A DNA stretch of 64,000 nt, from contig JBMFIF010000002.1 in assembly GCA_049976445.1 (NCBI GenBank), positions 5,115 through 69,114 of the forward strand, in the 5' to 3' direction. The notes beneath the pieces are model-generated. The model searched no databases, was not told the origin of the DNA, and saw only the letters and a list, made by a program, of their open reading frames with translations. Made by a program: the position numbers and the translations under genes. Below are positions 29,125-63,984 of the stretch, in pieces (the first letter of the stretch is position 1; the number at the start of each line of letters is the position of its first letter). Source of the DNA: Thermoprotei archaeon. GTDB lineage: Archaea > Thermoproteota > Thermoprotei > Gearchaeales > WAQG01.

Positions 29125-29139
29125 GGTTGGATTATCCAG
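29125..29139. promoter_or_regulatory. operator-like repeat copy 2 (GGTTGGATTATCCAG)
   Basis: Overlaps the annotated TTG start of the btuF-like gene; 87 bp from copy 1 with TATA-like boxes between. Confidence 0.4.
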
Positions 29140-32179: not shown

Positions 32180-32181
32180 TA

Positions 32182-33282: not shown

Positions 33283-34235
33283 ACTCCTTCCACACAAGTA
33301 TAATAATTTTAGTATTAGCAGTACTCATAGATATATTATTTGGAGAACCTCCACTCAAAGTTCATCCAGTAGTTTGGGTTGGTAGATTAATTAAATATTT
33401 GGAACGTTACTGTCATGGAGGAAGCACTCAACTAGAGAAAATTAAAGGTACGATGATGGCTATATCAGTAATTATAATATCCATCACAATAACATACATC
33501 GCTTTAAAAATAGTACAGTCTTATCTCGGTTTATATGGATACATAATAATAGCATCTATAATATTCAAAACAACTTTTTCAATACGATCCATGAAAGATC
33601 ACATAAAACCAATAGCTATCTCGTACGAGAAAAATAATAAAGAAAAGGCCAAAGTATTATTGTCACGAGTCGTAAGAAGAAATCCCTGGCAACTCACTGA
33701 TGAACAAATAATCTCAGCTGCAATAGAGACGACAGCAGAAGGCATAGTAGATGGTATAACATCAGCATTGTTCTATTACAGTATACTTGGAATACCAGGT
33801 GCAATAATGCAACGAGTTATAAACACATTGGACTCAATGGTTGGGTATAAAGATGAATATTATAAGAATGTAGGATGGTTCTCAGCAAAATTAGATACAA
33901 TAATAAACTTTATACCAGCTCGTCTCACAGCAATTACTATAGTACTGGCATCATTAATTTTAAAAAAAGATTATAAATTAAGCTTTAAAATAGCATTAAC
34001 AGACCATAAAAATACTGAAAGTCTTAATGCGGGATGGCCAATGTCAGCAATGGCAGGCGCTCTAAGAATACAACTAGAAAAACCCGGACATTACAAACTT
34101 GGGATTCCAATGCAAAAACTAAAGCCAGAACTCATATACGATGCATTAAACATAATGTATACATCAACAACACTTTTCATAATAACAATAATAATTCCTA
34201 TACTTATTCTCTTTAATATCTACCTATTTTTATAA
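33279..34235 (+). CDS. cbiB: adenosylcobinamide-phosphate synthase CbiB
   Basis: LDSMVGYK...GWFSAKLDTIINFIPARLTA matches the CbiB/CobD-membrane family signature; 318 aa, multi-TM. Confidence 0.7.
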   Translation: MNSFHTSIIILVLAVLIDILFGEPPLKVHPVVWVGRLIKYLERYCHGGSTQLEKIKGTMMAISVIIISITITYIALKIVQSYLGLYGYIIIASIIFKTTFSIRSMKDHIKPIAISYEKNNKEKAKVLLSRVVRRNPWQLTDEQIISAAIETTAEGIVDGITSALFYYSILGIPGAIMQRVINTLDSMVGYKDEYYKNVGWFSAKLDTIINFIPARLTAITIVLASLILKKDYKLSFKIALTDHKNTESLNAGWPMSAMAGALRIQLEKPGHYKLGIPMQKLKPELIYDALNIMYTSTTLFIITIIIPILILFNIYLFL

Positions 34236-34342
34236 TTAAAAAACTTACCAGAAAGCACGTGTTCACAAAATGAAATGATCTGATTTTTCGTTATCATTTA
34301 GTTATTTGCGTTAATTTTAAAATATAAGTTTTATAAATTATT

Positions 34343-35158
34343 TTGATAAAAATGTGGTATTTAGATACTCTAGACCGTAAACCTTTAGGTAGAACAAGAG
34401 AAACTGTACCTGCGATCGGTATTGGAACATGGGCTGTAAGGGACTTTAATAAAGCCGAAACAGCTTTAGTTAAAGCAGTAGAGCTTGGGCTTAATATGAT
34501 AGATACTGCAGAAATGTACCACACAGAAGAACTTGTAGGTAAAGTTATCAAAAAGGTTGGTAAAGAGAACGTTTTCATAACAACTAAACTTTTACCTGAA
34601 CACTTTTCAGATGTTGACAATGCATTAAATGCAGCTAAATTAAGCCTTTCAAGATTAGGAATTAATATTGTCGATTTAATTCTAATACACTGGCCTAGAA
34701 CCTTCACACCCATCGAAAAACAAGTCAGAATACTAGAGGCAATAGCCAACGCAGGGTATTCCAGATACATAGGTGTGAGTAATTTTAATGTTAACCAGCT
34801 TTCAAAAGCAACACAATCAACCAAAAAACATGAAATAGTAGTAAACCAAGTAAAATATAGCGTGTTAGATCGAACAATAGAGGATAACTTATTATTATAT
34901 GCTATAGAGCATGGTATAACAATACAAGCATACACACCATTAGAGAAAGGTAAGGTTTCAAACAATAAAATTTTATCTGAAATAGGTAAAAAATACAATA
35001 AGACACCAACACAAGTAGCATTAAATTATCTTATCTCTAACCCCATGGTGACTGCAATACCAAAAACAGAAAAAATCGAAAGAGTATTAGAATTTAAAGG
35101 ATCATTAGGATGGAGACTTATGAAAGAGGACATAGAATTCATTAAGAGCAAAATTTAA
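34343..35158 (+). CDS. aldo/keto reductase
   Basis: AKR motifs (IDTAEMYHTEELVG; LIHWP); 271 aa. The overlapping minus ORF 34294-34998 is a shadow frame. Confidence 0.8.
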   Translation: MIKMWYLDTLDRKPLGRTRETVPAIGIGTWAVRDFNKAETALVKAVELGLNMIDTAEMYHTEELVGKVIKKVGKENVFITTKLLPEHFSDVDNALNAAKLSLSRLGINIVDLILIHWPRTFTPIEKQVRILEAIANAGYSRYIGVSNFNVNQLSKATQSTKKHEIVVNQVKYSVLDRTIEDNLLLYAIEHGITIQAYTPLEKGKVSNNKILSEIGKKYNKTPTQVALNYLISNPMVTAIPKTEKIERVLEFKGSLGWRLMKEDIEFIKSKI

Positions 35159-35192
35159 CCCTAAAAACCTTTAGCTTATCCAGCTATCCTTT

Positions 35193-35241
35193 CTCTGACC
35201 TCTTCCCCACCCTGAAGGGCGAAGTTTGTCCTTCTTTTATC
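35193..35241 (-). repeat. GC-rich repeat element, short form (inverted relative to 26527-26673)
   Basis: Reverse complement GATAAAAGAAGGACAAACTTCGCCCTTCAGGGTGGGGAAGAGGTCAGAG equals the long form with the segment between its two CTTCAGGGYGG cores deleted. Confidence 0.5.
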
Positions 35242-35298
35242 AACGAAGAGTGAAGCTTAAATAAATTTTTCAAATAGAAGAATCGTAAGTGAACAAAA

Positions 35299-36411
35299 AT
35301 GAATAACACTCAAAACGTAAAAATCTATTTTAAAGATAATACACTCATCATCGAATCAGCATCAGAAATGGAAGTACTGAGTAGTGCTGTATTCAATGGT
35401 GGAAGACAAAAAGCACAATATATAATAAACTATAAGGTTTCTAAAACCTTTGATGATCCAAAACCAGCACTATACCTAAAAAATGTAATAGAAAAACTAG
35501 GATTACCTCACGATTCAACAATAGGATTAATGACAGCTGCTGATGTTCACAATGCTTCAATAATTAATGAAGGACCAGTTACAGCAATAATTACTGCAGG
35601 CCTTTCAAATACAGCAACCGCCGGTGATGATATAGCAGTACAAAACATCGGAACGATTAATATGATTATTATAGTAAATGGATTACTAAACGAAAACGCT
35701 TTTGTAGATGCAATAATAACTGCCACAGAAGCAAAAACAGTAGCACTTGATCAATTAGATATTATAAGTAGAGTATCAAGAAAAAGAGCAACAGGAACAA
35801 CAACTGATTCTATAGTAATAGCATGCACACAACAAGGTGAAAGATATGAATATGCAGGCACAGCGACAAAAATAGGTAATATGATAGCTAAAAGTGTCAT
35901 AAAAGGTGTTTTAGAAGCCATAAAACTCCAGGAAAATATAACATCATCTAGACCAATATTAAAAAGATTAGAAGAAAGAGGAATTACACTAAAGGATCTC
36001 GTAGAAACGGGTATGGAACTTTATATACATCACCCAAGCATGGGAACAATAGAGAACGCAAGAAAAACATTAGAAGAAATATTGATAGAATCAATGAATG
36101 ATATAAATGTTGCATCATTAATTATTGCCGGAATAAGGATAGAGGAGGAAGGAAGAAAGGGTTTAATACCTGGTCTTACAAGAGAAGAATTTGAAAAAGA
36201 TCCTGTAAATCTAGTGGCTGATGAGTTAATAGGAATGGCTATAGCTGATTACATAGCAGGTTCAAGAGGTATTTTTGAATATGTCAGGTTTGATAGAATA
36301 AAACCAGGCATTATCAGAAATCTAGGGCCCTTCATGGATGACATAATCGGAGCATTAATAGGTGGAGCGTCATCACTCATGTATACAAAATTACTTAAAA
36401 AACAGAAGTGA
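35299..36411 (+). CDS. cbiZ: CbiZ-like adenosylcobinamide amidohydrolase domain protein (extended)
   Basis: N-terminal region resembles the CbiZ family; 370 aa, longer than canonical CbiZ; directly upstream of cobS/cobY with overlapping stops and starts. Confidence 0.4.
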   Translation: MNNTQNVKIYFKDNTLIIESASEMEVLSSAVFNGGRQKAQYIINYKVSKTFDDPKPALYLKNVIEKLGLPHDSTIGLMTAADVHNASIINEGPVTAIITAGLSNTATAGDDIAVQNIGTINMIIIVNGLLNENAFVDAIITATEAKTVALDQLDIISRVSRKRATGTTTDSIVIACTQQGERYEYAGTATKIGNMIAKSVIKGVLEAIKLQENITSSRPILKRLEERGITLKDLVETGMELYIHHPSMGTIENARKTLEEILIESMNDINVASLIIAGIRIEEEGRKGLIPGLTREEFEKDPVNLVADELIGMAIADYIAGSRGIFEYVRFDRIKPGIIRNLGPFMDDIIGALIGGASSLMYTKLLKKQK

Positions 36412-37151
36412 TCAAGTTGATAAAACAATTAAAAGCCCTCTTATCATTTCTTACAATAATACCAGTAAAAGAGGAACACGATCTAAAAACAATTGCAGAA
36501 GGTATACACCTCTTTCCATTGATAGGATTTTTCACCGGAATCCTAACAGGATTTATAGCATACCTTATCTCAAGAGTATACCTAAGTCTTTTAACGGGAA
36601 TAATAGCAGTATCATTCCTGGAATTTATAACAGGACTTCACCATTTTGACGCATTGTTAGATTTTGGTGATGGTATTATGGCTAAAACAACACCAGAAAA
36701 GAAAATAGAAATTATGCATGATAAACAAACAGGAAGCGGCGGATTCTGGTTAGGTATTACAATAATTGGAATAAAAATATTTTCAATATCACAATTACAT
36801 GGATTACAACTCTTTACAGCAATAATTCTTTCAGAAATCTCCGCAAAACTTTCAATGGTAATAGGAATGTGGCTAGGCAACCCAGCTTACCCCTCTAGTA
36901 CAGCAGTACCGTTCATAGAAGAAGCACATAAAAACCCTAAAAAACCATTAATAGCTCTTATATTCTCATTATTCATAGCATTACTCTTCATGACAGAAGG
37001 AATATTAATGATAATTACAAGCATAATAGTGGCAGTAATCATTGAACATCTATCACAAAAACATTTTAAAGGTATAACTGGCGATGTATTGGGATCCATG
37101 GATGAAATAACATCAGCTCTCTCATTATTAGTATTAGTGAGCATAATATGA
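36408..37151 (+). CDS. cobS: adenosylcobinamide-GDP ribazoletransferase (cobalamin synthase) CobS
   Basis: 247-aa polytopic membrane protein of CobS size and topology, in an operon with cobY. Confidence 0.6.
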   Translation: MIKLIKQLKALLSFLTIIPVKEEHDLKTIAEGIHLFPLIGFFTGILTGFIAYLISRVYLSLLTGIIAVSFLEFITGLHHFDALLDFGDGIMAKTTPEKKIEIMHDKQTGSGGFWLGITIIGIKIFSISQLHGLQLFTAIILSEISAKLSMVIGMWLGNPAYPSSTAVPFIEEAHKNPKKPLIALIFSLFIALLFMTEGILMIITSIIVAVIIEHLSQKHFKGITGDVLGSMDEITSALSLLVLVSII

Positions 37152-37768
37152 TAAAAATTAAAGCTCTAATCATGGCAGGAGGAAAAGCAACCAGAATGAA
37201 TAACATAGAAAAACCCCTCATAAAAATATGCGGAACCACAATGATAGAAAGAATACTCAATGCACTAAAGAACACTAAGTGCATAGAAGATGTATATATA
37301 ACAACAAGTAAAAATACGAAAAACACAGAAATCCTACTTAAAACCTTAGGATATAAAACAATAACAACTTCAGGAGAAGATTATGTAGAAGACTTAAAAA
37401 ACACAATTATAAAACTAAACATAAAAGATCCCATATTAGTATTACCATCCGATCTACCATTAATAACACCAAATACAATAGAACAATTAATCAATATTTA
37501 CATACAAAACAACTCTCCACCAACAACGACGTTTTACATACCATTGCAACTACTAAAAACAAAAATACGAACAAACTACATAGAACAAATAAATAATATA
37601 AAAGTAATACCATCTGGCATTAGTATAATAAAAGGATCATACATTACGCAAAATGTAATACCGCAAATAAACATAATAGTCGAAAACACAGAATTAAGCG
37701 TTAACGTGAATACGTTATTAGATATAAAAATTGCACAATCAATTTTATGCAAAAGAAATAATAAGTAG
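37148..37768 (+). CDS. cobY: adenosylcobinamide-phosphate guanylyltransferase CobY (archaeal NTP-transferase type)
   Basis: MAGGKATRM nucleotidyltransferase G-loop; 206 aa, as in archaeal CobY. Confidence 0.6.
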   Translation: MIKIKALIMAGGKATRMNNIEKPLIKICGTTMIERILNALKNTKCIEDVYITTSKNTKNTEILLKTLGYKTITTSGEDYVEDLKNTIIKLNIKDPILVLPSDLPLITPNTIEQLINIYIQNNSPPTTTFYIPLQLLKTKIRTNYIEQINNIKVIPSGISIIKGSYITQNVIPQINIIVENTELSVNVNTLLDIKIAQSILCKRNNK

Positions 37769-53083: not shown

Positions 53084-54721
53084 ATGATTGATGTAAGATA
53101 TTTAATTAATCAAATGAGCCTTGAAGAAAAAATTGGTAACCTGTTTATGTTTGGTTTTGACAGTACTGATGACAGTAGAGCTGTTACAGAAAGATTAAAA
53201 ATTATTATCGACCAGTATCATGTTGGAGGAATAATTTATTTTTCTAGAAATTTAAAGAGTGCTAAACAAGCTGCTGAACTTTCTAAATCAATACAATCGT
53301 TATCAAGGCGTAACAATTATGTGTTGCCCGTTATCATAGCAACGGATCAAGAAGGTGGTAATGTAGTCAGACTAAGAGATGGCACAATATTTCCTGGTAA
53401 TATGAGTCTTGGTGCTATAGGTTCTAAAAAGATTACTTATGAGGTAGGTCGTATTATTGGTAAGGAATTGATCTCAGTAGGAATAAACATGAACTTGGCA
53501 CCAGTTTTAGATGTGAACACAAATCCTGTAAATCCTGTGATAGGTATTAGATCGTTTGGTGGTGATCCTGAGATGGTCGCATCGTTAGGTGGAGCATACA
53601 TTGAAGGTCTTCATTCTGAAGGTGTACTAGCCGTAGCAAAACATTTTCCAGGACATGGTGACTCATCGTTGGATTCTCATTTGGATCTTCCAATAATAAA
53701 TAAAGATCTTGACGAATTAATGAAGATTCATATAAAACCATTCATGGATGCAATTAGTATGTTTAATGTTGATGCAATAATGACTGCACATGTAGTATAT
53801 CCAGCTCTCGACAAAGAAAATCCTGCAACGCTTTCTAGAAAAATATTAAGAGAATTTTTGCGCGAAAAATTAGGATTCAATGGGGTTATAATGACAGATG
53901 ATATGGAGATGAGAGCAATAAGTGATAGATATGCACCTGGTGATGCTTCTATTAAGGCATTAAAGGCTGGTGCAGACCTCATACTTTTCTCTCATACATA
54001 TTCTAAACAAATTGAGGCTTATAATACTGTTCTTAAGGCAGTAGAAAATGAGTATATTACAAATGATGAGTTAGATGAGAAGGTTAGAAGGATTCTTCAG
54101 CTTAAACTTCGCGTTATAGATCATATGAGTAAAATAGATCCATCGATTGTCGGTAAGAAGGAACATCGTGACTTTGAATTAGAAGTCGCTAGAAAGGCTG
54201 TAACATTGTTAAAAAATAATAATAGAGTATTACCAATTAAAGGTGAACGAGAGGTTATAATTGTTGAACCAAAAATAGGTATTTCATCACAAGTTGAAGA
54301 AAAATATCAACCATTATATTTATCTGAAATACTTAAGAATTATCTTAAAATAAAGAGTGTAGTAGTTAATAAGGATTTAAACGATGATTATTACAGTAAG
54401 TTTTCCAAACTCTTAGAAAGTAATAGTGCTGCTGTATTTTTAATCGTAATTTCGTCTAAAGATGGTGTTGAATTCTTTAATAAAATAGTGCAGAATAATA
54501 ACTATAATAATGATACTGTAGTGGTTCTTTTTAAGAATCCTTTTCTCATAAATTATTTAAATACTAATCGCAGTGATTCAATAATAATAGGATACGCTTA
54601 TACACAGTGTATGATTATTGCAATTAGTGAGCTTATCATAGGAAAAATTAAGCCTAATGGTAAATTGCCAGTTAACTTAAATGAAGAGTATAAAATTGGT
54701 TATGGTATGAGAGATTTTTAG
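53084..54721 (+). CDS. glycoside hydrolase family 3 beta-N-acetylhexosaminidase-like (NagZ-type N-domain plus C-terminal domain)
   Basis: KHFPGHGDSSLDSHLDLP signature; 545 aa. Confidence 0.7.
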   Translation: MIDVRYLINQMSLEEKIGNLFMFGFDSTDDSRAVTERLKIIIDQYHVGGIIYFSRNLKSAKQAAELSKSIQSLSRRNNYVLPVIIATDQEGGNVVRLRDGTIFPGNMSLGAIGSKKITYEVGRIIGKELISVGINMNLAPVLDVNTNPVNPVIGIRSFGGDPEMVASLGGAYIEGLHSEGVLAVAKHFPGHGDSSLDSHLDLPIINKDLDELMKIHIKPFMDAISMFNVDAIMTAHVVYPALDKENPATLSRKILREFLREKLGFNGVIMTDDMEMRAISDRYAPGDASIKALKAGADLILFSHTYSKQIEAYNTVLKAVENEYITNDELDEKVRRILQLKLRVIDHMSKIDPSIVGKKEHRDFELEVARKAVTLLKNNNRVLPIKGEREVIIVEPKIGISSQVEEKYQPLYLSEILKNYLKIKSVVVNKDLNDDYYSKFSKLLESNSAAVFLIVISSKDGVEFFNKIVQNNNYNNDTVVVLFKNPFLINYLNTNRSDSIIIGYAYTQCMIIAISELIIGKIKPNGKLPVNLNEEYKIGYGMRDF

Positions 54722-54729
54722 GTGATCTA

Positions 54730-55842
54730 ATGGAGTTGTATTATGGAACACCTGAAGAAGCCGGATTAAATAAGGTACGATTAGATAAGATTCATGAGTT
54801 TATGAAAAAATACGTTAATGATGCCTTTCCAGGTGCTGTAATACTTATTGCGCGTAAAAGTGTAATTGCATTTCATGAAGCATATGGCAGCTCACAGATT
54901 ATACCAGTAAAAAGAGAAATGACAAGGGAGACAATATTTGATCTAGCATCTCTTACTAAACCTCTAGCAACATCAATAATAACTATGAGACTAGTTGAAG
55001 ATGGTCTTATAAATCTAAGACAAAAAATTTCAACAATATTTGATGAAATAGGGAAAGATGAAATAAAGCGCGAAATTACATTATGGCATTTGCTCACTCA
55101 CACATCTGGGTTACCTGCATGGGAACCTTTTTACAAAGGCTTTAAAGACAAAAAAGAAATAATTAAAGCTGCACTTAGCGCATTTCCTTCAAGCAAACCC
55201 GGTGAGAAATATACATATAGTGATCTAGGCTATATTATTTTAACTGGTATTGCAGAAGAAGTTTCTGGTAAAACATTTGACAAATTATTCGAAGAATATG
55301 TAGCATCACCATTAAGCCTTAAAGATACAATGTTTAATCCACCGGATTATTTAAAATCCCGCATAGCAGCTACAGAATTATGCGAATGGAGAGGAGAAGT
55401 TTTAGTTGGTTCTGTTCATGATGAGAATGCATATGCAATGGGTGGTGTAAGCGGTCATGCTGGACTTTTCTCAACAGCATTGGATATCGCTAAGATAGCA
55501 CAAATGATGCTTAACGGTGGAATCTATGGATCAAAAGAAATCTTATCTAGATCTTCCGTTCAGATTATGATAAAAAATCATGTTAAAAATTTAGGTGCTG
55601 GTTATGGTTTAGGGTGGATGATAAATAATGCCCCCAATGGAACATCAGCTGGAGATCTGTTTTCTAAAGAATCTTTTGGACATACTGGCTTTACAGGAAC
55701 ATCTCTTTGGGTTGATCCGGAAAAGGAGTTAATAGCAGTTTTACTTACTAATAGAATACATCCCTCAAGACAAAATACAAAACTTATAGAACTAAGACCA
55801 AAAATACATAACCTGATAGCATCAACTTTAACAAGATATTAA
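54730..55842 (+). CDS. beta-lactamase-fold serine hydrolase (class C / D-aminopeptidase / esterase family)
   Basis: SLTK (SxxK), YSD and HTGFTG (K/HTG) motifs; 370 aa; 8 bp after the GH3 gene. Confidence 0.7.
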   Translation: MELYYGTPEEAGLNKVRLDKIHEFMKKYVNDAFPGAVILIARKSVIAFHEAYGSSQIIPVKREMTRETIFDLASLTKPLATSIITMRLVEDGLINLRQKISTIFDEIGKDEIKREITLWHLLTHTSGLPAWEPFYKGFKDKKEIIKAALSAFPSSKPGEKYTYSDLGYIILTGIAEEVSGKTFDKLFEEYVASPLSLKDTMFNPPDYLKSRIAATELCEWRGEVLVGSVHDENAYAMGGVSGHAGLFSTALDIAKIAQMMLNGGIYGSKEILSRSSVQIMIKNHVKNLGAGYGLGWMINNAPNGTSAGDLFSKESFGHTGFTGTSLWVDPEKELIAVLLTNRIHPSRQNTKLIELRPKIHNLIASTLTRY

Positions 55843-56204: not shown

Positions 56205-56576
56205 TTAATGTTGTTCATTATTGAGAAGGAATTCAATGTATTCTTTTATTACTGTAGCATTATTTCTTTCTTTGTCTTTGGTTGCATAAAGTAATGTTAT
56301 GCTATTTTTTTGTTTTATTATCTCGATTAATTTTTGTAATGAAGGATTATTTTCTAATTCTTTAATATACCTTTTTTTAAATTCATTCCATTTAGCGGGA
56401 TCATGAGAAAACCATTTCCTTAAATCATTTGAAGGTGCAATATCTCTAAGCCATAAATCTATTTTTGATTTCTTTTTGCTTAATCCTCTAGGCCATAGTC
56501 TATCTACTAAAATTCTGTAACCATCATCTTCAGATGGTTCTTCGTAAATTCTTTTTATTTTAATCATTTTTCTCAT
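56205..56576 (-). CDS. DUF488 family protein
   Basis: 123 aa; YRILVDRLWPRGLSK...LWLRDIAPS pattern typical of DUF488. Confidence 0.55.
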   Translation of the reverse strand: MRKMIKIKRIYEEPSEDDGYRILVDRLWPRGLSKKKSKIDLWLRDIAPSNDLRKWFSHDPAKWNEFKKRYIKELENNPSLQKLIEIIKQKNSITLLYATKDKERNNATVIKEYIEFLLNNEQH

Positions 56577-56711
56577 TAAAAAAGTGAATTCTCATCTAAA
56601 TATTTTTGACGGGCATTAAATAAAAATCATCATTAACCATTATTTGAGTGTTAAATCAGATAATATTAAAATTGATTAGTTAGATAAGTGAGTTTTGAGA
56701 TTTTTATTAGA

Positions 56712-57284
56712 TTATTGTACTTTAAATAAAACATCTATGATCTTTTGTATATATTCATAAGGTTGCTCTACGCGTTCAGCAAAATCCATAGAAATAACAT
56801 AATAAAATAAATTTCCAAGGAATATTTTTAAATAAAACTCATCGATCATTTTTCCAGTTAGGTTCTGTATTTTTTCTTTTAATTTGGTATAGTTTGAGTG
56901 ATGAATTTTTTTGAAGGTTTCTTTAATTTCACTGTATCTATTTGCTATTCCTATGGAATAAAGGAAAAGTTTTCTTTCAATGGGGTCATTGTATTTTAGA
57001 ATATATTTTAATGCTAGATCATTAAGCATTTCTTTAACATCATTATAATGTTTTTCTATTACATTGTTTAATACTTCAACTGGTGAAACACTGATAGCAA
57101 TCTCTTTGATTAATTGCTCTTTGCTTGTAAAATATGTATAAAATGTGCCTTTGGAGAGTTTAACTTTTTCCATTATTTCATCTACTGTAGTCAAGTCAAA
57201 ACCTTTTTCAGCGAATATTTGACGTGCAGCCATGATGATTAATTTCTTTTTTTCGTTATTGCTATTCCTCATAATCCTACACAT
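56712..57284 (-). CDS. TetR/AcrR-family transcriptional regulator
   Basis: N-terminal HTH (IMAARQIFAEKGFDLTTVDEIMEKVKLSKGTFYTYF); 190 aa; divergent from the radical-SAM genes. Confidence 0.75.
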   Translation of the reverse strand: MCRIMRNSNNEKKKLIIMAARQIFAEKGFDLTTVDEIMEKVKLSKGTFYTYFTSKEQLIKEIAISVSPVEVLNNVIEKHYNDVKEMLNDLALKYILKYNDPIERKLFLYSIGIANRYSEIKETFKKIHHSNYTKLKEKIQNLTGKMIDEFYLKIFLGNLFYYVISMDFAERVEQPYEYIQKIIDVLFKVQ

Positions 57285-57372
57285 AATTTAGTTCTGCATA
57301 GTTATATACTTTTTGGCTAACTAGTCAGTCAAAAATATAAGTATCTTTAAAGAAATATATAAGTGAGAAATT

Positions 57373-58896
57373 ATGGGTAATACTAATGGTTCGAATTCAA
57401 TGGTTAATGCTATAGAATCATTTAAGGGTATTGTAGATAATCCATTGAGTAAGTATTTATTAAGATATTTAACTGGTTATTGTGAGAAGGATCATGAGAA
57501 TCGGTTAGAGGTTGCTCTTGAACTTTACTTAGGAATTAGGAAAGATGCTTGTTTTTCTTGTCGATCAGCTTCTAAGGTTGTTAGTTACATTGTTAAAAAA
57601 GGTGCAAAGAGTTTTGGAGTTAGTGAGGATCAATTAAAAAGTACTATGAAAGATTCGTATTGGAGAAGAGGTCTTATTAGTGTACTTAAAGGTATAGCAT
57701 TTTTTGGTGTTCGCAAGCCGTTTGTACCAGGGGCTCCGTTTCAAGTCGTATGGAATATAACCAAAGCGTGTAATATGAACTGTTTGCATTGTTATGAAAG
57801 CGCTGGCATAAAGGGTAATGATGAACTCACTTCTGAACAAATTCATCAGGGAATAGATATACTTGCTGATGCTGGCGTAACTATCTTAGCGTTTTCTGGA
57901 GGTGAGCCAACAATACATCCTAATATAGTAGAATTCATTAGTCATGCTCACAATAGGGGAATGTACGTAGCTATTGCTACTAATGGTTATGTTTTAGCCA
58001 ATAAGTATGTTATAAGAAAATTAAAGAGTGCAGGTTTAGGATATGTACAGATTAGTCTAGATGGTCTGAATCCAAACACTCATGACTCATTTAGAAGGGT
58101 GAAGGGTGCTTGGGAACATGCTGTTCGTGCAATAAAAAATAGTATTGAGGAAGGATTATTTGTTGAAGTAGCTACTACTGTTACAAAATACAATATTAAT
58201 GAAATACCTGAAATGATTAAGTTTGTCAGAAATCTTAAAGCTAATTGGTTTATGTTATATAATTTTGTCCCTACAGGGCGTGGGAAAGAGATTATAGAAA
58301 GTGATCTTTCACCGAGAGAACGTTTTGATCTTTTAAAATTAGCCTATTCAGAAACAGGTGATGGTGGTTTGCAAGTGCTTTCCACAGCTCCTCAGTATGC
58401 TGCTGTTGCGCAAATGTTTAATAAGAATGGTAAGAATATAATACCAACTCATTTCTATAATCCTGAATATAATGATCCAAAAATACGTCAGTTAGCAGAA
58501 TTTATTGGTGGTTGTGGTGCTGGGAGGTTTTATATATCGATCGAGCCAAATGGAGACATATATCCATGCGTATTCTTTCCACATGTAGATGAAGTAAAAA
58601 TCGGTAATTTGTTAAAAGATGATTTCGAAAAACTTTGGAGGGAACATGAGTTATTATGGAAATTACGAAATAAGGATATTTTAGAAGGATTCTGTGGTAA
58701 ATGTGCGTTTAGATATACATGTGGGGGGTGTCGAGCTCGTGCATATAATTATTTTGGCAACGTATTAGCACCTGACCCAGGATGCATTTTTAATTCTAAA
58801 GAATGGAATAAATTAAGGTCTGAATTGCTTATTAAATATCATGCAGAGGAAACACCAGCAGGTAATATTCTCATAAGAATAAATGATACACCATGA
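57373..58896 (+). CDS. radical SAM enzyme with C-terminal SPASM domain and a Cys-bearing N-terminal extension (candidate tetraether-synthase / GDGT-MAS-like)
   Basis: CNMNCLHCY (Cx3Cx2C) at about residue 133; C-terminal CGAG...PC...CGKC...CGGC SPASM cysteines; N-terminal region with GYC/DAC/FSC; 507 aa. Confidence 0.75.
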
Positions 58897-60341
58897 CGCG
58901 CATTATTCTCATAAATCCTATAGATAGAACTCAGATCACTAATAGGCTTGGACTAAAAGCACCACCACTAAATTTAATGTACCTTGCGTCTGCGCTTGAA
59001 AAAGCTGGATTCTATGTTAAAATTATAGATGCTAATCTTTATAATATACTACCGCATCAAATAGCAAGAGTAATAAAAGGGTTTAGACCTGATATTATTG
59101 GTTTAACAGCTGCAACCGCTACCATAAAAACTGCTTTACATTATGTATCAGAAATCAAAAAGGCTATATCAAACGTATTTACCATAATAGGTGGACCTCA
59201 TGTTACTTTTCTTCCAACAGAAACATTGAATATGTCAAAAGATTTAGATGCGGTAGTTATAGGTGAAGGTGAAGAAACCATCGTCAAGATAGCAGAATCT
59301 TATGAAAAAAGTAATCCGGAATGGCTTTCTAACATAAGAGGAGTGGCTTATAGGATAAAAAATCATGATTCAAGTAAAATAAAAATCACACCCCCAAGGC
59401 CTTTTATTAAAAACTTAGATTTAATACCATTCCCGGCTCGTCATTTAGTACCGTTTAACGAATATAAGCTGTACAACAAGGATACACCCATAGGTAGTAT
59501 GATTACAAGTAGGGGTTGCGTTTTTGCATGTAATTATTGTTCATCCTCGCACCTGATGGGAAGAATGTTTCGAGCACGCAGTTCAAAAAATGTAGTTGAT
59601 GAAATCGAAGAATTAGTATACAAATACAATGTTGATACAATCGAATTTATTGATGATATTTTCACTCTAAACAAAAAACGTGCATTAGAGATTGCTAAGG
59701 AAATACGCTCTAGAAAAATTGATATAAACTTTGTTGCATCATCTAGAGTTGATACTATAAACCGTGAATTATTAACAGAATTAAAAAAAGCTGGGCTTTC
59801 AACAATGTATTATGGTGTAGAATCAGGTTCAGAACGCGTTTTAAAATTAATGAATAAAAGAATCACGTTATCACAAGCGGAAAAAGCCATAAATGAAACT
59901 AAAAACATTGGTGTTAGTACACTAGCATCATTCATACTAGGTTATCCAGGTGAAACTCTTAATGAGATGTGGGCCACTATAAAATTCTCTATAAAACTTA
60001 ACCCAGATTATGCACAATTCTCCATACTCACACCATATCCTGGGACACCAATATACTATGAACTTAAACAAAAAGGATTAATCGCTACAGAAGATTGGGA
60101 TAAATACACAGTATTAGACCCAGTTATAGAATATGAAAAATTAGGATTAAGCAAACACATAGTCTCAAAAATGCTCAGAGAAGCATATTTAAGATTTTAT
60201 CTAAGACCAAGATACTTATTAAAACGAATAACAATGTTAAAGGCTCTAATATATACAATGATCAATACTTATATCTTACCTATTTTTCAACACAAAGACT
60301 CATTAGGTTGGTATAAGGACCTAAGCACTCATCACGATTGA
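58893..60341 (+). CDS. B12-binding-domain radical SAM enzyme (class B)
   Basis: N-terminal Rossmann-like cobalamin-binding region; CVFACNYC (Cx3Cx2C); 482 aa; start overlaps the upstream radical-SAM stop by 4 bp. Confidence 0.75.
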
Positions 60342-60520
60342 AGACAGAAGATTTTCACTCCTAAAATGCTCACCAATCTGTTGTCACTCCTTTAAACCTT
60401 CATTATAGAAAACTGTTCAAAAATATTACTGATAGAAATTTAATGCTTTTTTACATAATTTTTGTCCCTTAATCTTCATAAAGTGATGATGAATCTTTCA
60501 TCGTTGAGCTTATTTATTGG

Positions 60521-60610
60521 GTAGTCGAATCATTTTAGGATAAATTTTATACTATCTTAAGAAAAGATGAGTATGGATTGGTTCATACTAACCTGACTCC
60601 ACCACATATT
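60521..60610 (+). repeat. about 90-bp direct repeat, copy 2
   Basis: See copy 1. The internal hairpin GTATGGATTGGTTCATAC differs from copy 1 by A to G, which keeps pairing as a G-U wobble. Confidence 0.6.
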
Positions 60611-60738
60611 TATCAAGTAGCATTTTTCAAACTACAACACACACAATTATGTAGCAAAGCAAAACTTAATTAATCTTTATAAATTGTTTACGATATCTAT
60701 TTATTCATAAAATGATAAATTCTCTTGAGGTGTTTTAA

Positions 60739-62775
60739 TTGAAAATATTACCGTGGATCATTATAGTGATGATCTTAAACTTAATGTTCGTAATGCAAGC
60801 ACCTATTCACGCACAAACGTTACCTCCAAACAGAGCAATAATATTCCCAACACCATTATCACCTGCGGTTGTTTTAGTTGGATCAACATTTAATGTTACA
60901 ATAAATGCGCCTCAAAGTGCATTAAATTGGACAGCCCAAGGATATGGTATTAAACTAGTAAATAATACATTAATATCTTTAAACACGACATTTTACATTA
61001 CCAACACTTATTATAATTCATCAAATAGCCTGTGGATCTTAAGTTTAAACGTACCTGATACTACGATACCCGGACTTTATACGCTTCAGGTTATCTTTCG
61101 TCTCGGTAATTCGATTTTAAAATATGTTCAGGAAAAAAGTGTATGGATTCTTGATAAATGGCCTGATAGGTTACGTATTGCTCAATTTACCGATGTTCAT
61201 ATAGGTGTTCCTGAGGCGATAAGTCTCTTTACTACTGGGATTATTAGTGCTCAACTATTTAATTCAACTGTAGTATTCATAACTGGAGATGATGGTGATA
61301 CTGCGGCTGAATGGCAAGAACTAACTTTTAGGCAGCTTTCATTACTTGCACCCACACTACCAACTTTTGCCATACCTGGAAATCACGATGCTAGAACAAC
61401 AGCCTATGATGATTATGTAGGGCCTCGTCAATACTTCACAAACTTAGGAAAATTCCTTGTAATAGGAATAGATACAGGTGAAAATGGAGCTATATCTTAT
61501 AACACACTACGATGGATGCAACAAGTACTAATGTTATATGGCGATAATAAAGTCAAAATACTCCTTATGCATCATCCCTTATTCAGTACCAAAGTACAAG
61601 GTTATCTCAGCACATCATTATCAAACGTTTCAACATCAATGCTATATTATAGCTGGGCTGCTAACCCTGACATCGCCAAGGCTCTTCTCAAGACTATAGA
61701 AGACTTTAACATCACATTAATCTTAGCTGGCCATGTGCACACAGACAGAATTGTTGTAGTAAATTCAACAGTAACAAAATCACTACACTGGTTTATAACC
61801 ACTACAACAACAGGAGAAGGAAGGCCTGAATATAATGGTTTTAGAATAATTGACATAGATAAAGAAGGCCATGTTAACATACCTTTCATGCCTCCATGGG
61901 GAAAAATCGAACAATATCCGAATAGTATTCCTATAGATAAAACATGGTCACAAGGATACTTAGATGCAAGACTCATATATAATAATAAAAAAATAGTAGT
62001 AACAGTTAACATTACTAATGCTCTAACTTACGTTAATTTAAATTCTGTAATAATACTTAACTCAAACAGTAGTGTTACGTTATCAAACTATAAAACATAT
62101 ACTAACTCTTATGGATCAAGCGCTTCAGCAACATTATTAAGCAGTACAAGTATTGCAGGATTAAACTATTATGCAGTAAAAATAAACGTTCCATCAAGAA
62201 GTGGTATAAGAATAACATTAGCACCATATGATGATACTGATGTACCAACAGGAAAAATAGTATACACATTACCACTTCAACCAGAACCTAATGCCCCAAT
62301 ATCGGTATACATACAAGCATCCGATACAGGCTGGGGTATCTTGAGAGTATATGCAGAATATTTATATCAAAATAAAGAAACTGTTATCGAATCAACATAT
62401 GAACAACCATACTATAAGATAACATTACCAGGATTTCCACCTGGAACAGTTATTAATATTACAATAAAAATTACTGATGTTGCAGGTCATGCTACAACAT
62501 TGACCCTGCCCATAAACTTCGGCATCATATCTACTACATCTACTACGACGTTAACCCTAACTACTACGACCACAACATCAACTACATCAAAAACCACTAC
62601 AACAATCACAACGACCACTACAACTATAACCACCACGAGTACACCATTATTAACAACCACTACAGAGACCTTAATAACGACCAGCCCAGTTAGTATTATT
62701 AATCCATTAACCGTTATAATAATAGCCATAGTAATAGGAGTGATACTATTTGTTATAATTGTCAGACGTAAATAA
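60739..62775 (+). CDS. surface-anchored calcineurin-like metallophosphoesterase with N-terminal beta domain, Thr-rich stalk and C-terminal TM anchor
   Basis: Signal peptide; GNHDARTT and GHVHTDR phosphoesterase motifs; about 60-aa Thr/Ser-rich linker; terminal hydrophobic helix + RRK; 678 aa. Confidence 0.6.
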   Translation: MKILPWIIIVMILNLMFVMQAPIHAQTLPPNRAIIFPTPLSPAVVLVGSTFNVTINAPQSALNWTAQGYGIKLVNNTLISLNTTFYITNTYYNSSNSLWILSLNVPDTTIPGLYTLQVIFRLGNSILKYVQEKSVWILDKWPDRLRIAQFTDVHIGVPEAISLFTTGIISAQLFNSTVVFITGDDGDTAAEWQELTFRQLSLLAPTLPTFAIPGNHDARTTAYDDYVGPRQYFTNLGKFLVIGIDTGENGAISYNTLRWMQQVLMLYGDNKVKILLMHHPLFSTKVQGYLSTSLSNVSTSMLYYSWAANPDIAKALLKTIEDFNITLILAGHVHTDRIVVVNSTVTKSLHWFITTTTTGEGRPEYNGFRIIDIDKEGHVNIPFMPPWGKIEQYPNSIPIDKTWSQGYLDARLIYNNKKIVVTVNITNALTYVNLNSVIILNSNSSVTLSNYKTYTNSYGSSASATLLSSTSIAGLNYYAVKINVPSRSGIRITLAPYDDTDVPTGKIVYTLPLQPEPNAPISVYIQASDTGWGILRVYAEYLYQNKETVIESTYEQPYYKITLPGFPPGTVINITIKITDVAGHATTLTLPINFGIISTTSTTTLTLTTTTTTSTTSKTTTTITTTTTTITTTSTPLLTTTTETLITTSPVSIINPLTVIIIAIVIGVILFVIIVRRK

Positions 62776-62804
62776 TTATTCTAATTTTTATTTGAAGCGT
62801 TTAC

Positions 62805-63758
62805 TTAAATTATTTTACTAAGAATCATTCCAATAATATAAAAAATACCGAAGAGTAAAGTAAATTTAGATGTTTGTGGTGCAGCAGTATTTGGAATTTG
62901 TTTTGAAAAGCGTTTTATAAGGCTTATTAATTTTGGAAGTGTTAAGAAGATTATAAGTGATGGAATTCCCAAAATGTTAATGATAATGAACAATATAACT
63001 AAAATGAGCGGTGATGTTACTAATATATAGTATAATTTTAATGCATTTTGTTTTCCAATAAGGATTGGTAGTGTCTTTATATTTGAAGATTTATCATATT
63101 CATAATCTCTTATTCCATCAATTAATAATACAGCTGCTACGAGTAATCCTATTGGGAATGAGATTAAAATTGGTTTGAAGGAGATTATTCCGGTTTGTGC
63201 ATAATAAGAACCTAAGAATATTAATGGTCCCCATACTATAAACACGGCTAGCTCTCCTAATCCTTTATACTTGTATTTTAATGGTGGACCAGTGTATTCT
63301 AACGATATTAATGCACCGATCAAGCCTAAAAATAAGATTAAAGGTCTTCTTAAGAGGTATAAAGAAAATCCTGCTAAGACTGCTACAAAAAAGTATCCTA
63401 TTGATATTTTAAGCGTGTGGTGCGGTTTAAAGATGCCTGATATTATAGGATGTGGTCTGTATCTTGTGGTTGGGGCATCGGGCTTATCTACCCCATAAAG
63501 AGTATCAAAATAGTCGTTTATTACATTCGTATAAGCGTGCAGTGAAATAGCACCTATTAAAGTAATTAGATAAATAATTGGATTAAAGATGTTAAGTTCA
63601 TAATAAGCATAAGCAATTCCTGATGTTACGGATGCGATTGTCATAAGGAAACTCCAAGGCCTAGTTATATACACTACATTTATAATAAATTTCCAAAGAT
63701 TATTAAAAGAACTTGGCATTATCATCACTTCTTTACAACAATATAGGAAAAATGACAA
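62805..63758 (-). CDS. UbiA-family membrane prenyltransferase
   Basis: NVINDYFD...D...P...RP.P..G first Asp-rich motif and a second motif later (LIDGIRDYEYD); about 8 TM helices; 317 aa. Confidence 0.6.
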   Translation of the reverse strand: MSFFLYCCKEVMIMPSSFNNLWKFIINVVYITRPWSFLMTIASVTSGIAYAYYELNIFNPIIYLITLIGAISLHAYTNVINDYFDTLYGVDKPDAPTTRYRPHPIISGIFKPHHTLKISIGYFFVAVLAGFSLYLLRRPLILFLGLIGALISLEYTGPPLKYKYKGLGELAVFIVWGPLIFLGSYYAQTGIISFKPILISFPIGLLVAAVLLIDGIRDYEYDKSSNIKTLPILIGKQNALKLYYILVTSPLILVILFIIINILGIPSLIIFLTLPKLISLIKRFSKQIPNTAAPQTSKFTLLFGIFYIIGMILSKII

Positions 63759-63984
63759 TAACTAACTCTAGCCAAATGATATGCGTAATCATTGATGGTA
63801 TAATACCAAATTGATAAGCTACGTATCCTGTGACTAATCCTACTATTAACGCTGCTATTACTAATATATAATTAAAAGTGGCTATGTGAACCATCGAATA
63901 GTAAATCGATGATAAAATCCATGGATATTGTACATTATTAATGAATATGCCTTGGATAAATCCTCTCCAATAGATTTCTTCCAT
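63733..63984 (-). CDS. CPBP (CAAX protease / Abi) family intramembrane protease, C-terminal part (gene continues beyond window end)
   Basis: EEIYWRGF (EExxxR) and later His-containing motif in hydrophobic context; the ORF probably continues to the right of the window. Confidence 0.45.
   Translation of the reverse strand: MEEIYWRGFIQGIFINNVQYPWILSSIYYSMVHIATFNYILVIAALIVGLVTGYVAYQFGIIPSMITHIIWLELVIVIFPILL

What the first reader, a model, noticed from the sequence alone, without database searches (positions are those of the whole stretch)
56205..63758. TetR-controlled pair of radical-SAM enzymes (SPASM type plus B12-binding type) next to a UbiA prenyltransferase: candidate membrane-lipid modification module
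The 507-aa SPASM radical-SAM enzyme has an N-terminal Cys-bearing extension and the size of tetraether-synthase (GDGT-MAS/Tes) homologs. The 482-aa class-B (cobalamin-dependent) radical-SAM enzyme resembles the family that includes GDGT ring synthases, and it is translationally coupled to the first. A TetR regulator is divergent. A UbiA-family prenyltransferase whose first motif resembles that of DGGGP-synthase-type enzymes lies 2.4 kb away. The same window carries a full cobamide salvage cluster that would supply the B12 cofactor. Together this suggests an inducible isoprenoid-lipid tailoring system; alternatives are RiPP-like peptide maturation or cofactor biosynthesis.
Basis: inference. Interest (0 to 1): 0.65.

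Follow-up and report, generated by a model that had tools for sequence, protein, structure and literature searches.

The report
TetR-linked GMGT synthase and methylase operon
The two radical-SAM genes are this archaeon's copies of Gms and Gmm, enzymes described in 2024 that cross-link and then methylate the two chains of tetraether membrane lipids; the pair itself is ordinary, and the only new element is a neighbouring TetR-type repressor with a conserved operator.

Summary

"Membrane-lipid tailoring" is the right process, but the families are wrong. The SPASM enzyme is not Tes/GDGT-MAS. It has an AhbD-like core plus a ~120-aa six-helix N-terminal domain, which is the published architecture of GMGT synthase (Gms). 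It is 55% and 54% identical to the proteins of Methanothermobacter thermautotrophicus and M. marburgensis, both known producers of methylated GMGTs.

The B12 enzyme is 55% identical to the gms-linked partner at a locus encoding the M. thermautotrophicus Gms, so it is read as the GMGT methylase Gmm. The UbiA protein is MenA-like, not DGGGP synthase, and is not part of the conserved unit.

A TetR gene next to gms was found in none of the lipid papers read. It recurs in this lineage (divergent), in Methanobacteriaceae (co-directional) and as a 680-aa TetR–Gms fusion in one M. thermautotrophicus record. A conserved 26-bp palindrome sits between the two TATA boxes. The Gms N-domain also carries a CxxD/C…CxxC motif.

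Verdict: new member of a known kind, modest interest.

The parts
56712..57272 (-). TetR-family transcriptional regulator (186 aa from M5; the longest ORF starts at 57284)
   Evidence: PF00440 TetR_N, E 2.2e-16. It is 65-84% identical over its full length to the divergent TetR next to gms-gmm in relatives L088, L084 and L085, whose proteins start at the residue aligned with M5. No NCBIfam equivalog cutoff is reached. The best solved relative is the uncharacterised 2eh3.
57302..57308 (-). TATA-like box of the tetR promoter (TATATAA on the minus strand), 29 nt upstream of ATG 57272
   Evidence: Read directly from the sequence and conserved in relatives. Promoter function is inferred from archaeal BRE/TATA geometry and was not tested.
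57310..57335 (.). 26-bp imperfect palindrome TTTTTGGCTAACT|AGTCAGTCAAAAA, the candidate TetR operator. Its A/T arms coincide with the BRE positions of both divergent promoters.
   Evidence: Inverted repeat I3: 13-nt arms, 85% complementary, no spacer. It is the best-conserved block of the intergenic region in L088, L084, L085 and L086 while flanking intergenic sequence diverges. Its 20-nt core occurs once in the 64-kb window with up to 3 mismatches, against 0 expected by chance. Binding is inferred.
57336..57343 (+). TATA-like box of the gms-gmm promoter (TATAAGTA), 29 nt upstream of ATG 57373
   Evidence: Read from the sequence and conserved in relatives. Function is inferred.
57373..58896 (+). 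gms: GMGT synthase homologue, 507 aa. N-terminal six-helix domain (about residues 10-111), radical-SAM core with C133/C137/C140, and a SPASM domain with seven Cys (C381, C399, C441, C444, C450, C453, C471).
   Evidence: Pfam Radical_SAM + SPASM. AhbD model 241 bits and NirJ2 model 248 bits, each below its cutoff of 500. The AF2 model shows six N-terminal helices, as described for MoGms. 55% and 54% identical to the M. thermautotrophicus and M. marburgensis proteins.
58893..60341 (+). gmm: cobalamin-dependent radical-SAM GMGT methylase homologue, 482 aa, translationally coupled to gms by an ATGA overlap. It ends in a hydrophobic, amphipathic-looking C-terminal segment.
   Evidence: Pfam B12-binding + Radical_SAM. 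55% identical over 460 aa (E 3e-173) to the B12 enzyme directly downstream of gms at a locus (L089) encoding the M. thermautotrophicus Gms. 58-59% identical to M. subterraneum proteins, a species the paper lists as gmm-encoding. A B12 partner lies directly next to gms in about 40 of 88 loci. The overlap is shown, and Tg-gms/Tg-gmm also overlap.

Best explanation
The unit is tetR <-> gms-gmm.

**Shown or strongly supported**
- gms and gmm form one translationally coupled transcription unit.
- Gms is an AhbD-derived radical-SAM/SPASM enzyme with one SAM cluster, two auxiliary [4Fe-4S] clusters and a lipid-binding helical N-domain. By homology to characterised Gms enzymes, it abstracts hydrogen from a chain carbon of a GDGT tetraether. 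It then forms a C(sp3)-C(sp3) bond to the opposite biphytanyl chain, giving the H-shaped GMGT.
- Gmm is a class-B (cobalamin) radical-SAM methylase that adds one to three methyl groups to the GMGT alkyl chain.

**Inferred**
- A TetR dimer binds the 26-bp palindrome lying exactly between the two divergent TATA boxes.
- That position overlaps both BRE sites, so binding would repress tetR itself and gms-gmm until a ligand releases it. The ligand is unidentified and probably hydrophobic or amphiphilic.
- Cross-linking and methylation of the membrane monolayer would therefore be inducible.
- Cobamide for Gmm can come from the salvage cluster 20 kb upstream.
For: **Architecture of Gms**
- CX3CX2C motif plus a seven-Cys SPASM domain.
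- AhbD and NirJ2 are the best curated models, but both score far below cutoff.
- The ~120-aa N-terminal extension is predicted as six helices. [quoted passage not shown]

**Link to known producers**
- 55% identity to M. thermautotrophicus WP_269889702.1 and 54% to M. marburgensis ADL57959.1.
- The paper names both species as methylated-GMGT producers whose gms clusters with gmm.
- The window protein falls in one subclade with them in a crude NJ tree.

**Gmm**
- 55% identity over the full length to the gms-adjacent B12 enzyme at L089, the locus encoding the M. thermautotrophicus Gms.
- ATGA overlap with gms, as in T. guaymasensis.
- Adjacent to gms in about 40 of 88 loci.

**TetR**
- Divergent tetR-gms-gmm is conserved in four loci from relatives while the flanks change.
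- A TetR gene sits directly upstream of gms in 15 Methanobacteriaceae-type loci, plus L089 and L090.
- An in-frame 680-aa TetR-Gms fusion exists in one M. thermautotrophicus record.
- The conserved, unique palindrome lies between symmetric TATA boxes, each 29 nt from its ATG.

**Mechanisms of the enzymes** come from the literature on orthologues.
Against: - No lipid data exist for this organism, and neither tes nor grs is in the window; the pair are its only CX3CX2C proteins.
- I could not retrieve the experimentally characterised sequences (T. guaymasensis, T. celer, P. furiosus, M. okinawensis). The published BLAST thresholds therefore could not be applied, and the link to function runs through Methanothermobacter homologues.
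- B12 radical-SAM homologues of Gmm are functionally labile: they include Cgm, Pgm, the desaturase Ted and the cyclase Grs.
- The TetR proteins of this lineage and of Methanobacteriaceae share only the HTH region. They are not demonstrably orthologous.
- Most gms loci have no adjacent TetR.
- Operator binding and the ligand are untested.
- The promoter elements are read by eye. The only promoter scanner available is for sigma-70 promoters and is irrelevant to archaea.
Confidence: 0.82

Rival explanations
1. Gms is correctly identified, but the B12 partner is not a GMGT methylase. Instead it methylates unbridged GDGTs (Cgm/Pgm-like), desaturates them (Ted-like) or cyclises them (Grs-like).
For: Homologues of Gmm carry out all of these reactions at 31-34% identity to Tg-Gmm. 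Some genomes have gmm without gms, which suggests GDGT methylation. No curated model reaches its cutoff; the best is BchE at 243.6 bits against 481.
Against: It is translationally coupled to gms. It is 55% identical over its full length to the gms-linked enzyme at L089, the locus encoding the Gms of M. thermautotrophicus, a producer of methylated GMGTs. The closest solved relatives include an sp3 C-methyltransferase, QCMT (9CCB).
Confidence: 0.12
2. The TetR gene is a bystander, or regulates only itself or some other target. On this reading gms-gmm is constitutive or controlled elsewhere, for example by temperature.
For: Most gms loci lack an adjacent TetR. Other lineages have a winged-helix or a MerR-like gene upstream instead. 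The TetRs of the two lineages are alike only in the HTH. The published stimulus for GMGT is temperature (abstract).
Against: The tetR-gms-gmm block stays together while both flanks change. The association recurs independently in Methanobacteriaceae and as a TetR-Gms fusion. The only conserved element in the shared 100-bp control region is a palindrome centred between both TATA boxes.
Confidence: 0.25
3. A heme or other tetrapyrrole/cofactor pathway: an AhbD/NirJ-type decarboxylase working with a BchE-like cyclase.
For: The best curated hits are NirJ2 (248 bits), AhbD (241 bits) and BchE (244 bits).
Against: All three are at about half their cutoffs. AhbD lacks the N-terminal domain. Homologues at 55-60% identity occur in Methanobacterium and Methanobrevibacter. 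My own understanding, not tested here, is that these organisms do not make heme. No tetrapyrrole genes were found beside the pair.
Confidence: 0.03
4. One reading: a Tes/GDGT-MAS-type tetraether synthase plus a Grs ring synthase, assisted by the UbiA prenyltransferase.
For: The size is similar (507 aa), the N-terminal extension bears Cys, and Grs and Gmm are homologous.
Against: Similarity to GDGT-MAS is limited to the radical-SAM core. The C-terminus is a canonical SPASM domain, and the core resembles AhbD. UbiA is MenA-like and not conserved with the pair.
Confidence: 0.02
5. A RiPP maturase pair acting on a small precursor peptide.
For: SPASM enzymes and B12 radical-SAM methylases are common in RiPP clusters. 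Weak model hits include the mycofactocin maturase, AlbA, PqqE and ApyD. The best structural matches are SkfB and SuiB.
Confidence: 0.01

Closest known systems
GMGT synthase Gms (also Hbs). Characterised copies: T. guaymasensis X802_RS00105, T. celer A3L02_02305, P. furiosus PF0647, M. okinawensis METOK_RS04425. Sources: Garcia et al. 2024 (PMC11214058) and Li et al. 2024 (PMC11186832).
   Same: AhbD-like radical-SAM/SPASM core, a ~100-120-aa helical N-terminal domain, a length of about 500 aa, and a B12 radical-SAM gene immediately downstream and overlapping. The published family already includes 145 Thermoprotei sequences.
   Different: No direct sequence comparison with the characterised enzymes was possible here. 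This copy has a divergent TetR gene and an operator, which neither paper mentions. Its N-domain carries C37-x2-D40...C60-x2-C63, a feature not discussed in the papers.
GMGT methylase Gmm (T. guaymasensis X802_RS00110)
   Same: A class-B cobalamin radical-SAM enzyme, encoded directly after gms with overlapping stop and start codons. It is 55% identical to the gms-linked copy at a locus encoding the M. thermautotrophicus Gms.
   Different: Activity is unproven here. Family members have diverged to GDGT methylases (Cgm Saci_1785, Pgm), a desaturase (Ted) and cyclases (Grs).
AhbD heme b synthase / NirJ (TIGR04545, TIGR04055)
   Same: These are the best-scoring curated models for residues 125-474, with the same SPASM cluster layout.
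   Different: Scores are about half the family cutoffs. AhbD has no N-terminal domain. The substrate of the Gms family is a lipid, not a tetrapyrrole.
Tetraether synthase Tes / GDGT-MAS (MJ0619, PDB 7TOL)
   Same: A radical-SAM enzyme of similar size that makes a C(sp3)-C(sp3) bond between isoprenoid chains. Published mechanistic proposals treat the two alike.
   Different: Only the radical-SAM core aligns. Tes has different N- and C-terminal cluster domains and a rubredoxin-like domain.
Divergently transcribed TetR repressor-operator units (the bacterial TetR/TetA and QacR type; archaeal FadR of S. acidocaldarius)
   Same: A TetR_N HTH protein encoded divergently from its presumed target, with a palindrome in the shared intergenic region.
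   Different: The target would be tetraether cross-linking and methylation genes. The operator sits between archaeal BRE/TATA elements. The ligand is unknown. No curated TetR subfamily model is reached.

Membership tests
Gms (GMGT synthase) | Radical-SAM CX3CX2C motif plus a SPASM domain with 7-8 Cys for two auxiliary clusters | tested here: met
   C133/C137/C140, and C381, C399, C441, C444, C450, C453 and C471, all invariant in alignment A1.
Gms (GMGT synthase) | Core homologous to AhbD but not an AhbD orthologue | tested here: met
   TIGR04545 AhbD scores 241 bits over residues 125-474 against a cutoff of 500; NirJ2 scores 248 against 500.
Gms (GMGT synthase) | An N-terminal extension of ~100 aa (COG4001) that forms a separate helical domain (six helices in MoGms) | tested here: met
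   Residues 1-120 precede the core. AF2 predicts six helices, at 10-21, 24-33, 44-53, 61-80, 85-91 and 95-111, with pLDDT 63-92. The COG4001 label itself could not be checked because no COG library was available.
Gms (GMGT synthase) | Falls in the clade that holds proteins of confirmed GMGT producers, separate from AhbD | tested here: met
   55% and 54% identical to the M. thermautotrophicus and M. marburgensis proteins, and in the same NJ subclade. The tree is crude: NJ on 134 representatives that include fragments.
Gms (GMGT synthase) | BLASTP E <= 1e-80 to Tg-Gms WP_062369926.1 and length >= 400 aa (the published search criterion) | not testable with these tools
   Length is met (507 aa). 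The Tg-Gms sequence could not be obtained: the genome scan returned no Thermococcales and the supplements hold no sequences.
Gms (GMGT synthase) | Converts GDGT to GMGT | not testable with these tools
   Needs heterologous expression and LC-MS.
Gmm (GMGT methylase) | N-terminal B12-binding domain plus a radical-SAM domain (class B) | tested here: met
   PF02310 at 89 bits (residues 16-133) and PF04055 at 94 bits (residues 203-365).
Gmm (GMGT methylase) | Encoded next to gms, often overlapping it | tested here: met
   ATGA overlap at 58893-58896. The same arrangement occurs in about 40 of 88 loci.
Gmm (GMGT methylase) | Groups with the Gmm of methylated-GMGT producers | tested here: met
   55% identical, E 3e-173, to the gms-adjacent enzyme at L089, a locus encoding the M. 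thermautotrophicus Gms. No tree with a MoeK5 outgroup was built.
Gmm (GMGT methylase) | BLASTP E <= 1e-65 to Tg-Gmm WP_062369928.1; methylates GMGT | not testable with these tools
   The sequence was not retrievable, and activity needs an experiment.
Tes / GDGT-MAS | Full-length homology, including the N- and C-terminal cluster domains and the rubredoxin-like domain | tested here: not met
   7tol aligns only at residues 128-327 with E 1.3e-13, no better than BlsE, SkfB or PqqE. Foldseek aligns ~220 columns at TM 0.36-0.37.
AhbD / NirJ heme-pathway enzymes | NCBIfam equivalog cutoff | tested here: not met
   241 vs 500 (AhbD), 248 vs 500 (NirJ2), 203 vs 515 (NirJ).
Grs (GDGT ring synthase) | Clade membership with Saci_1585 or Saci_0240 | not tested
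DGGGP synthase (for the UbiA gene) | NCBIfam DGGGPS models | tested here: not met
   48.8 vs 296, 22.4 vs 353 and 18.4 vs 278. By contrast MenA TIGR00751 scores 110.4 vs 102.15 and PRK05951 scores 239.1 vs 239.
TetR family regulator | N-terminal TetR_N HTH plus a helical ligand domain of ~190 aa | tested here: met
   PF00440 at 59.8 bits, residues 16-62. 121 solved TetR structures match, most over the HTH region, and the best (2eh3) aligns residues 13-166. DNA and ligand binding were not tested.

The most novel reading that the evidence does not exclude
tetR-gms-gmm is a ligand-gated module: a TetR-family sensor sets how much the archaeal monolayer is cross-linked and methylated.

- The sensor has been recruited at least twice, divergently in this Thermoprotei lineage and as the first gene of the operon in Methanobacteriaceae. 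In one M. thermautotrophicus record it is even fused to Gms.
- It would be the first dedicated transcription factor and operator known for tetraether tailoring.
- It would give a molecular handle on the amphiphile- and temperature-induced lipid remodelling reported in 2024-2025.

A second, independent novelty is possible. The Gms N-domain may hold a previously unrecognised mononuclear metal site (CxxC/D...CxxC), functionally analogous to the rubredoxin-like iron of Tes.
Probability: 0.4. Interest if true: 0.55.

Novelty: new member of a known kind. Interest (0 to 1): 0.33.

Why it matters
GMGTs and their methylated forms are used as environmental and paleotemperature biomarkers, and they are thought to stiffen archaeal membranes under stress.

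The enzymes have been known since 2024, so finding another Thermoprotei copy adds little by itself.

What is useful is the regulatory context:
- a compact tetR-operator-gms-gmm unit in this lineage;
- the same gene triad at a locus encoding the Gms of M. thermautotrophicus, a cultured methanogen.

Together these make the question "what signal switches on tetraether cross-linking?" directly testable. EMSA, ligand screening and a regulator knockout would do it.

The conserved Cys motif in the N-domain suggests a metal site. The 2026 review states that Gms has no rubredoxin domain, and none of the papers read here mentions such a site.

Tried and rejected
- **Tes/GDGT-MAS identity.** Rejected by sequence and fold comparison with 7TOL.

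- **Retrieving characterised Gms and Gmm sequences.**
  - The PNAS paper has no held supplements.
  - The Nat Commun supplement holds figures only.
  - The single genome-contig scan used two strict peptide patterns. It returned 80 loci, none from Thermococcales or Methanococcales.
  - The AFDB50 fold library was unavailable.
  - Twenty cluster look-ups of 50%-identity representatives gave no Thermococcales names.
  - They did give the M. thermautotrophicus and M. marburgensis proteins, which I used as the bridge instead.

- **Orthology of the TetR proteins across lineages.** Pairwise BLAST aligns only the HTH. I therefore claim recurrent association, not a conserved orthologous regulator.

- **Other operator copies.** None in the window.

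- **Precursor peptide.** None credible.

- **UbiA, the metallophosphoesterase and DUF488 as parts of the module.** Rejected by comparative synteny.

- **Other radical-SAM genes (tes, grs) in the window.** None found.

- **Promoter and terminator scan.** The scanner is sigma-70-based and uninformative for an archaeon.

- **Family tree.** The NJ tree does not cleanly separate sequences with and without the N-domain, because fragments are included. I use it only for the local subclade.

Full report
**1. What is in the sequence**

The region holds six ORFs, annotated by Pfam and NCBIfam.

| Coordinates | Strand | Size | Identity |
|---|---|---|---|
| 56205-56576 | - | 123 aa | DUF488 |
| 56712-57284 | - | 190 aa | TetR_N regulator |
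| 57373-58896 | + | 507 aa | Radical_SAM + SPASM |
| 58893-60341 | + | 482 aa | B12-binding + Radical_SAM |
| 60739-62775 | + | 678 aa | Metallophosphoesterase with signal peptide, Thr-rich linker and C-terminal membrane anchor |
| 62805-63758 | - | 317 aa | UbiA-family protein |

- The two radical-SAM genes overlap by ATGA.
- They are the only proteins in the window with a CX3CX2C motif.
It spans 29127-37768 and encodes BtuF/C/D-like proteins, CobD, CbiB, CbiZ, CobS and CobY.
- The window has ~33% G+C and encodes a Vps4/CdvC-type ATPase. A 100%-identical copy of the SPASM protein is labelled 'Thermoprotei archaeon'.

**2. The SPASM enzyme is not Tes**

- Against all PDB sequences, GDGT-MAS (7TOL) matches only residues 128-327, at E 1.3e-13. 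BlsE, SkfB and PqqE match better.
- A Foldseek search with an AF2 model gives SkfB, SuiB, PqqE and anSME as the best full-length matches. GDGT-MAS aligns only over ~220 columns, at TM 0.36-0.37.
- The best curated models are NirJ2 (248 bits), AhbD (241 bits) and TIGR04053 (232 bits). All are far below their cutoffs, and all cover residues ~121-477 only. This leaves a ~120-residue N-terminal extension unexplained.

**3. Literature match for both enzymes**

Two 2024 papers describe exactly this architecture.

- Garcia et al. (PMC11214058) identified GMGT synthase (Gms) as an AhbD homologue, 36% identical to M. barkeri AhbD. It carries a ~100-aa N-terminal COG4001 extension predicted to form a hydrophobic lipid pocket.
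- Expressing three Thermococcales genes in T. kodakarensis made GMGTs 59-73% of the monolayer lipids.
- Li et al. (PMC11186832) showed the activity in vivo and in vitro for the M. okinawensis enzyme. [quoted passage not shown]
- Garcia et al. also showed that the B12 radical-SAM gene directly downstream, which overlaps gms in T. guaymasensis, encodes a GMGT methylase (Gmm).
- They report gms-gmm clusters in Thermoprotei, Nitrososphaerota and the methylated-GMGT producers M. thermautotrophicus, M. marburgensis and M. kandleri.
- Their family census already counts 145 Thermoprotei Gms and 129 Thermoprotei Gmm sequences.

**4. Tests of that lead**

*Architecture.* The AF2 model of the window protein (pLDDT 71.9) has six helices in residues 10-111. 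These are followed by the partial barrel and the SPASM region. The N-domain modelled alone gives the same six helices (pLDDT 76.7).

*Homologues.*
- The protein has thousands of relatives.
- They are 57-63% identical and full-length in Methanobacterium, Methanobrevibacter, Nitrososphaeria and Geothermarchaeales.

*Bridge to known producers.*
- I could not retrieve the Thermococcales or M. okinawensis sequences.
- A search seeded with a Methanothermobacter homologue, followed by a cluster look-up, recovered two named proteins: M. thermautotrophicus WP_269889702.1 and M. marburgensis ADL57959.1.
- The window protein is 55% identical (248 of 452 residues) to the first and 54% (245 of 450) to the second.
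- It sits with them in one subclade of a crude NJ tree.

*The B12 partner.*
- A locus encoding the exact M. thermautotrophicus Gms sequence (L089) is TetR + gms + B12 radical-SAM.
- The window B12 enzyme is 55% identical to that partner over 460 residues, E 3e-173.
- It is 58-59% identical to proteins of M. subterraneum, a species the paper lists as gmm-encoding.
- Across 88 loci, a B12 partner lies directly next to gms in about 40.
- Its closest solved relatives are AprD4 and the sp3 C-methyltransferase QCMT (9CCB).

I therefore assign the pair to Gms and Gmm. One caveat: Gmm-family enzymes are functionally labile, and include Cgm, Pgm, Ted and Grs.

**5. What belongs to the unit**

| Locus | Relation to window | Arrangement |
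|---|---|---|
| L088 (GCA_038881895.1) | tetR-gms-gmm block 87% nt identical | Divergent tetR + gms + gmm |
| L084, L085, L086 | Gms 85% aa identical | Divergent tetR + gms + gmm |

- In L084, L085 and L086 both flanks are different genes.
- In L088 the left flank is unrelated. An IS605/TnpB element sits between gmm and the metallophosphoesterase-UbiA-Rce1 block.
- UbiA is therefore a neighbour through local synteny only.
- UbiA is also MenA-like: TIGR00751 scores 110.4 against a cutoff of 102.15, while the DGGGPS models score below 50 bits against cutoffs of 278 or more. It is more likely a quinone-type prenyltransferase than a lipid-core enzyme.
- DUF488 and the phosphoesterase are not conserved with the pair.

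**6. The regulator**

*Recurrence.*
- An HMM built from the window TetR, the M. paludis TetR and the 15 ORFs they matched finds a TetR ORF directly upstream of gms in 19 loci besides the window.
- 13 are co-directional, in Methanobacterium- and Methanothermobacter-type loci.
- 2 are divergent (L071, Methanobrevibacter acididurans; L069, an unnamed Methanobacteriota MAG).
- 4 are divergent in the window's own lineage.
- L089 and L090 add two more co-directional cases.
- The TetRs of the two lineages align only in the HTH. Within the window's lineage the whole protein is 65-84% conserved.
- One M. thermautotrophicus record (WP_432703743.1, 680 aa) is an in-frame TetR-Gms fusion. This is a Rosetta-stone type of functional link.
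- Other lineages have a winged-helix or a MerR-like gene upstream instead.

*Literature.*
- Neither Gms paper mentions a regulator for gms-gmm.
- The 2025 preprint on GDGT methylases does not either. Its only 'TetR' is the tet-inducible expression system, and it does note MarR genes near cgm and pgm.

*Control region.*
- The 100-bp control region has a symmetric layout.
- The tetR ATG is at 57272, the start supported by the relatives. A TATA box at 57302-57308 lies 29 nt upstream of it.
- The 26-bp palindrome TTTTTGGCTAACT|AGTCAGTCAAAAA spans 57310-57335.
- A second TATA box at 57336-57343 lies 29 nt upstream of the gms ATG at 57373.
- The palindrome is the best-conserved intergenic block among relatives. 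It occurs nowhere else in the window.
- Repression of both promoters by a TetR dimer, relieved by a ligand, is the natural reading. It is inference only.

**7. Rivals**

- *Heme or other cofactor pathway.* The model scores, the extra N-domain and the distribution in Methanobacterium and Methanobrevibacter argue against it. That these methanogens lack heme is my own understanding and was not tested here.
- *Tes + Grs.* Excluded as in section 2.
- *Open sub-questions.* The exact activity of the B12 enzyme and the reality of TetR control remain unresolved.

**8. Comparison, novelty and verdict**

- The pair is a new member of the published Gms and Gmm families, not a new kind of system.
- Two side observations may be new:
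  - a recurrent local TetR regulator, with an operator candidate here and a fusion in Methanothermobacter;
  - a conserved C37-x2-D40...C60-x2-C63 motif in the N-domain.
- Of 75 family representatives that have the N-domain, 30 carry CxxC...CxxC, 14 CxxD...CxxC, one CxxH...CxxC and 30 none.
- The model places the first pair on a beta-hairpin and the second at a helix N-cap.
- A 2026 review states that Gms has no rubredoxin domain.
- Interest is modest. The finding is largely explained by known biology, but it offers a concrete way to study how tetraether cross-linking is regulated.

Noticed in passing
window 57373-57738 (Gms residues 1-122), and family representatives P0241-P0390: The Gms N-terminal domain carries Cys37-x2-Asp40 ... 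Cys60-x2-Cys63. Of 75 N-domain-bearing family representatives, 30 have CxxC...CxxC, 14 CxxD...CxxC, one CxxH...CxxC and 30 none. AF2 places the first pair on a beta-hairpin and the second at the N-cap of a long helix, a geometry typical of a mononuclear metal site. A 2026 review says Gms lacks a rubredoxin domain.
   Followed up: partly
L083 5930-6095; L089 5880-6010; proteins P0459, P0449, P0452: In Methanothermobacter, tetR is the first gene of tetR-gms-gmm. About 30 conserved Gms N-terminal codons lie upstream of the first canonical start codon. In L083 TetR and Gms share one frame, separated only by a TAG. In L089 they are offset by +1. In WP_432703743.1 (680 aa) they are fused in frame. 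This suggests non-canonical initiation, reinitiation, readthrough or a real fusion protein.
   Followed up: partly
window 29127-37768: A complete archaeal cobamide uptake and salvage cluster: BtuF-like binding protein, BtuC permease, BtuD ATPase, CobD-type aminotransferase, CbiB, CbiZ (with a PgpA-like C-terminal part), CobS and a CobY-like nucleotidyltransferase. It is a plausible source of the Gmm cofactor but is not specifically linked to it.
   Followed up: partly
L088 11669-12975, compared with window 60343-60661: In the close relative (GCA_038881895.1) an IS605-family TnpB/OrfB element with a small MerR-like HTH gene is inserted between gmm and the metallophosphoesterase gene. Further TnpB copies lie upstream. 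The left flank of tetR is unrelated between the two genomes, so tetR-gms-gmm behaves as a discrete block.
   Followed up: partly
L087 703-1191 (-); L038 4833-5462 (-); L055 4822-5454 (-): In gms-gmm loci without a TetR, other HTH proteins lie divergently upstream. The 68%-identical relative L087 has a 162-aa winged-helix-like protein. Two Methanobacteriaceae loci have a ~210-aa MerR-like protein. Local regulators of different families may be a general feature of gms loci.
   Followed up: no
window 53084-55842; L088 6187-7548: A GH3 (NagZ-like) glycosidase and a beta-lactamase-family serine hydrolase are encoded 8 nt apart, upstream of the tetR block. The relative L088 instead has a Peptidase_S13 (DD-peptidase family) gene next to tetR. 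The 2025 preprint reports that penicillin G and hexanoate induce GDGT methylation and that cgm neighbours penicillin amidase. This may be coincidence.
   Followed up: no
window 60739-62775 (+): A 678-aa calcineurin-like metallophosphoesterase with an N-terminal signal sequence, a long Thr-rich low-complexity linker and a C-terminal transmembrane anchor. It is probably a glycosylated surface enzyme and is unrelated to the lipid genes.
   Followed up: no
window 62805-63984 (-): The MenA-like UbiA prenyltransferase is followed on the same strand by a CPBP/Rce1-like intramembrane protease, cut off by the window end. The same pair occurs in L088. The prenyl acceptor is unknown.
   Followed up: no
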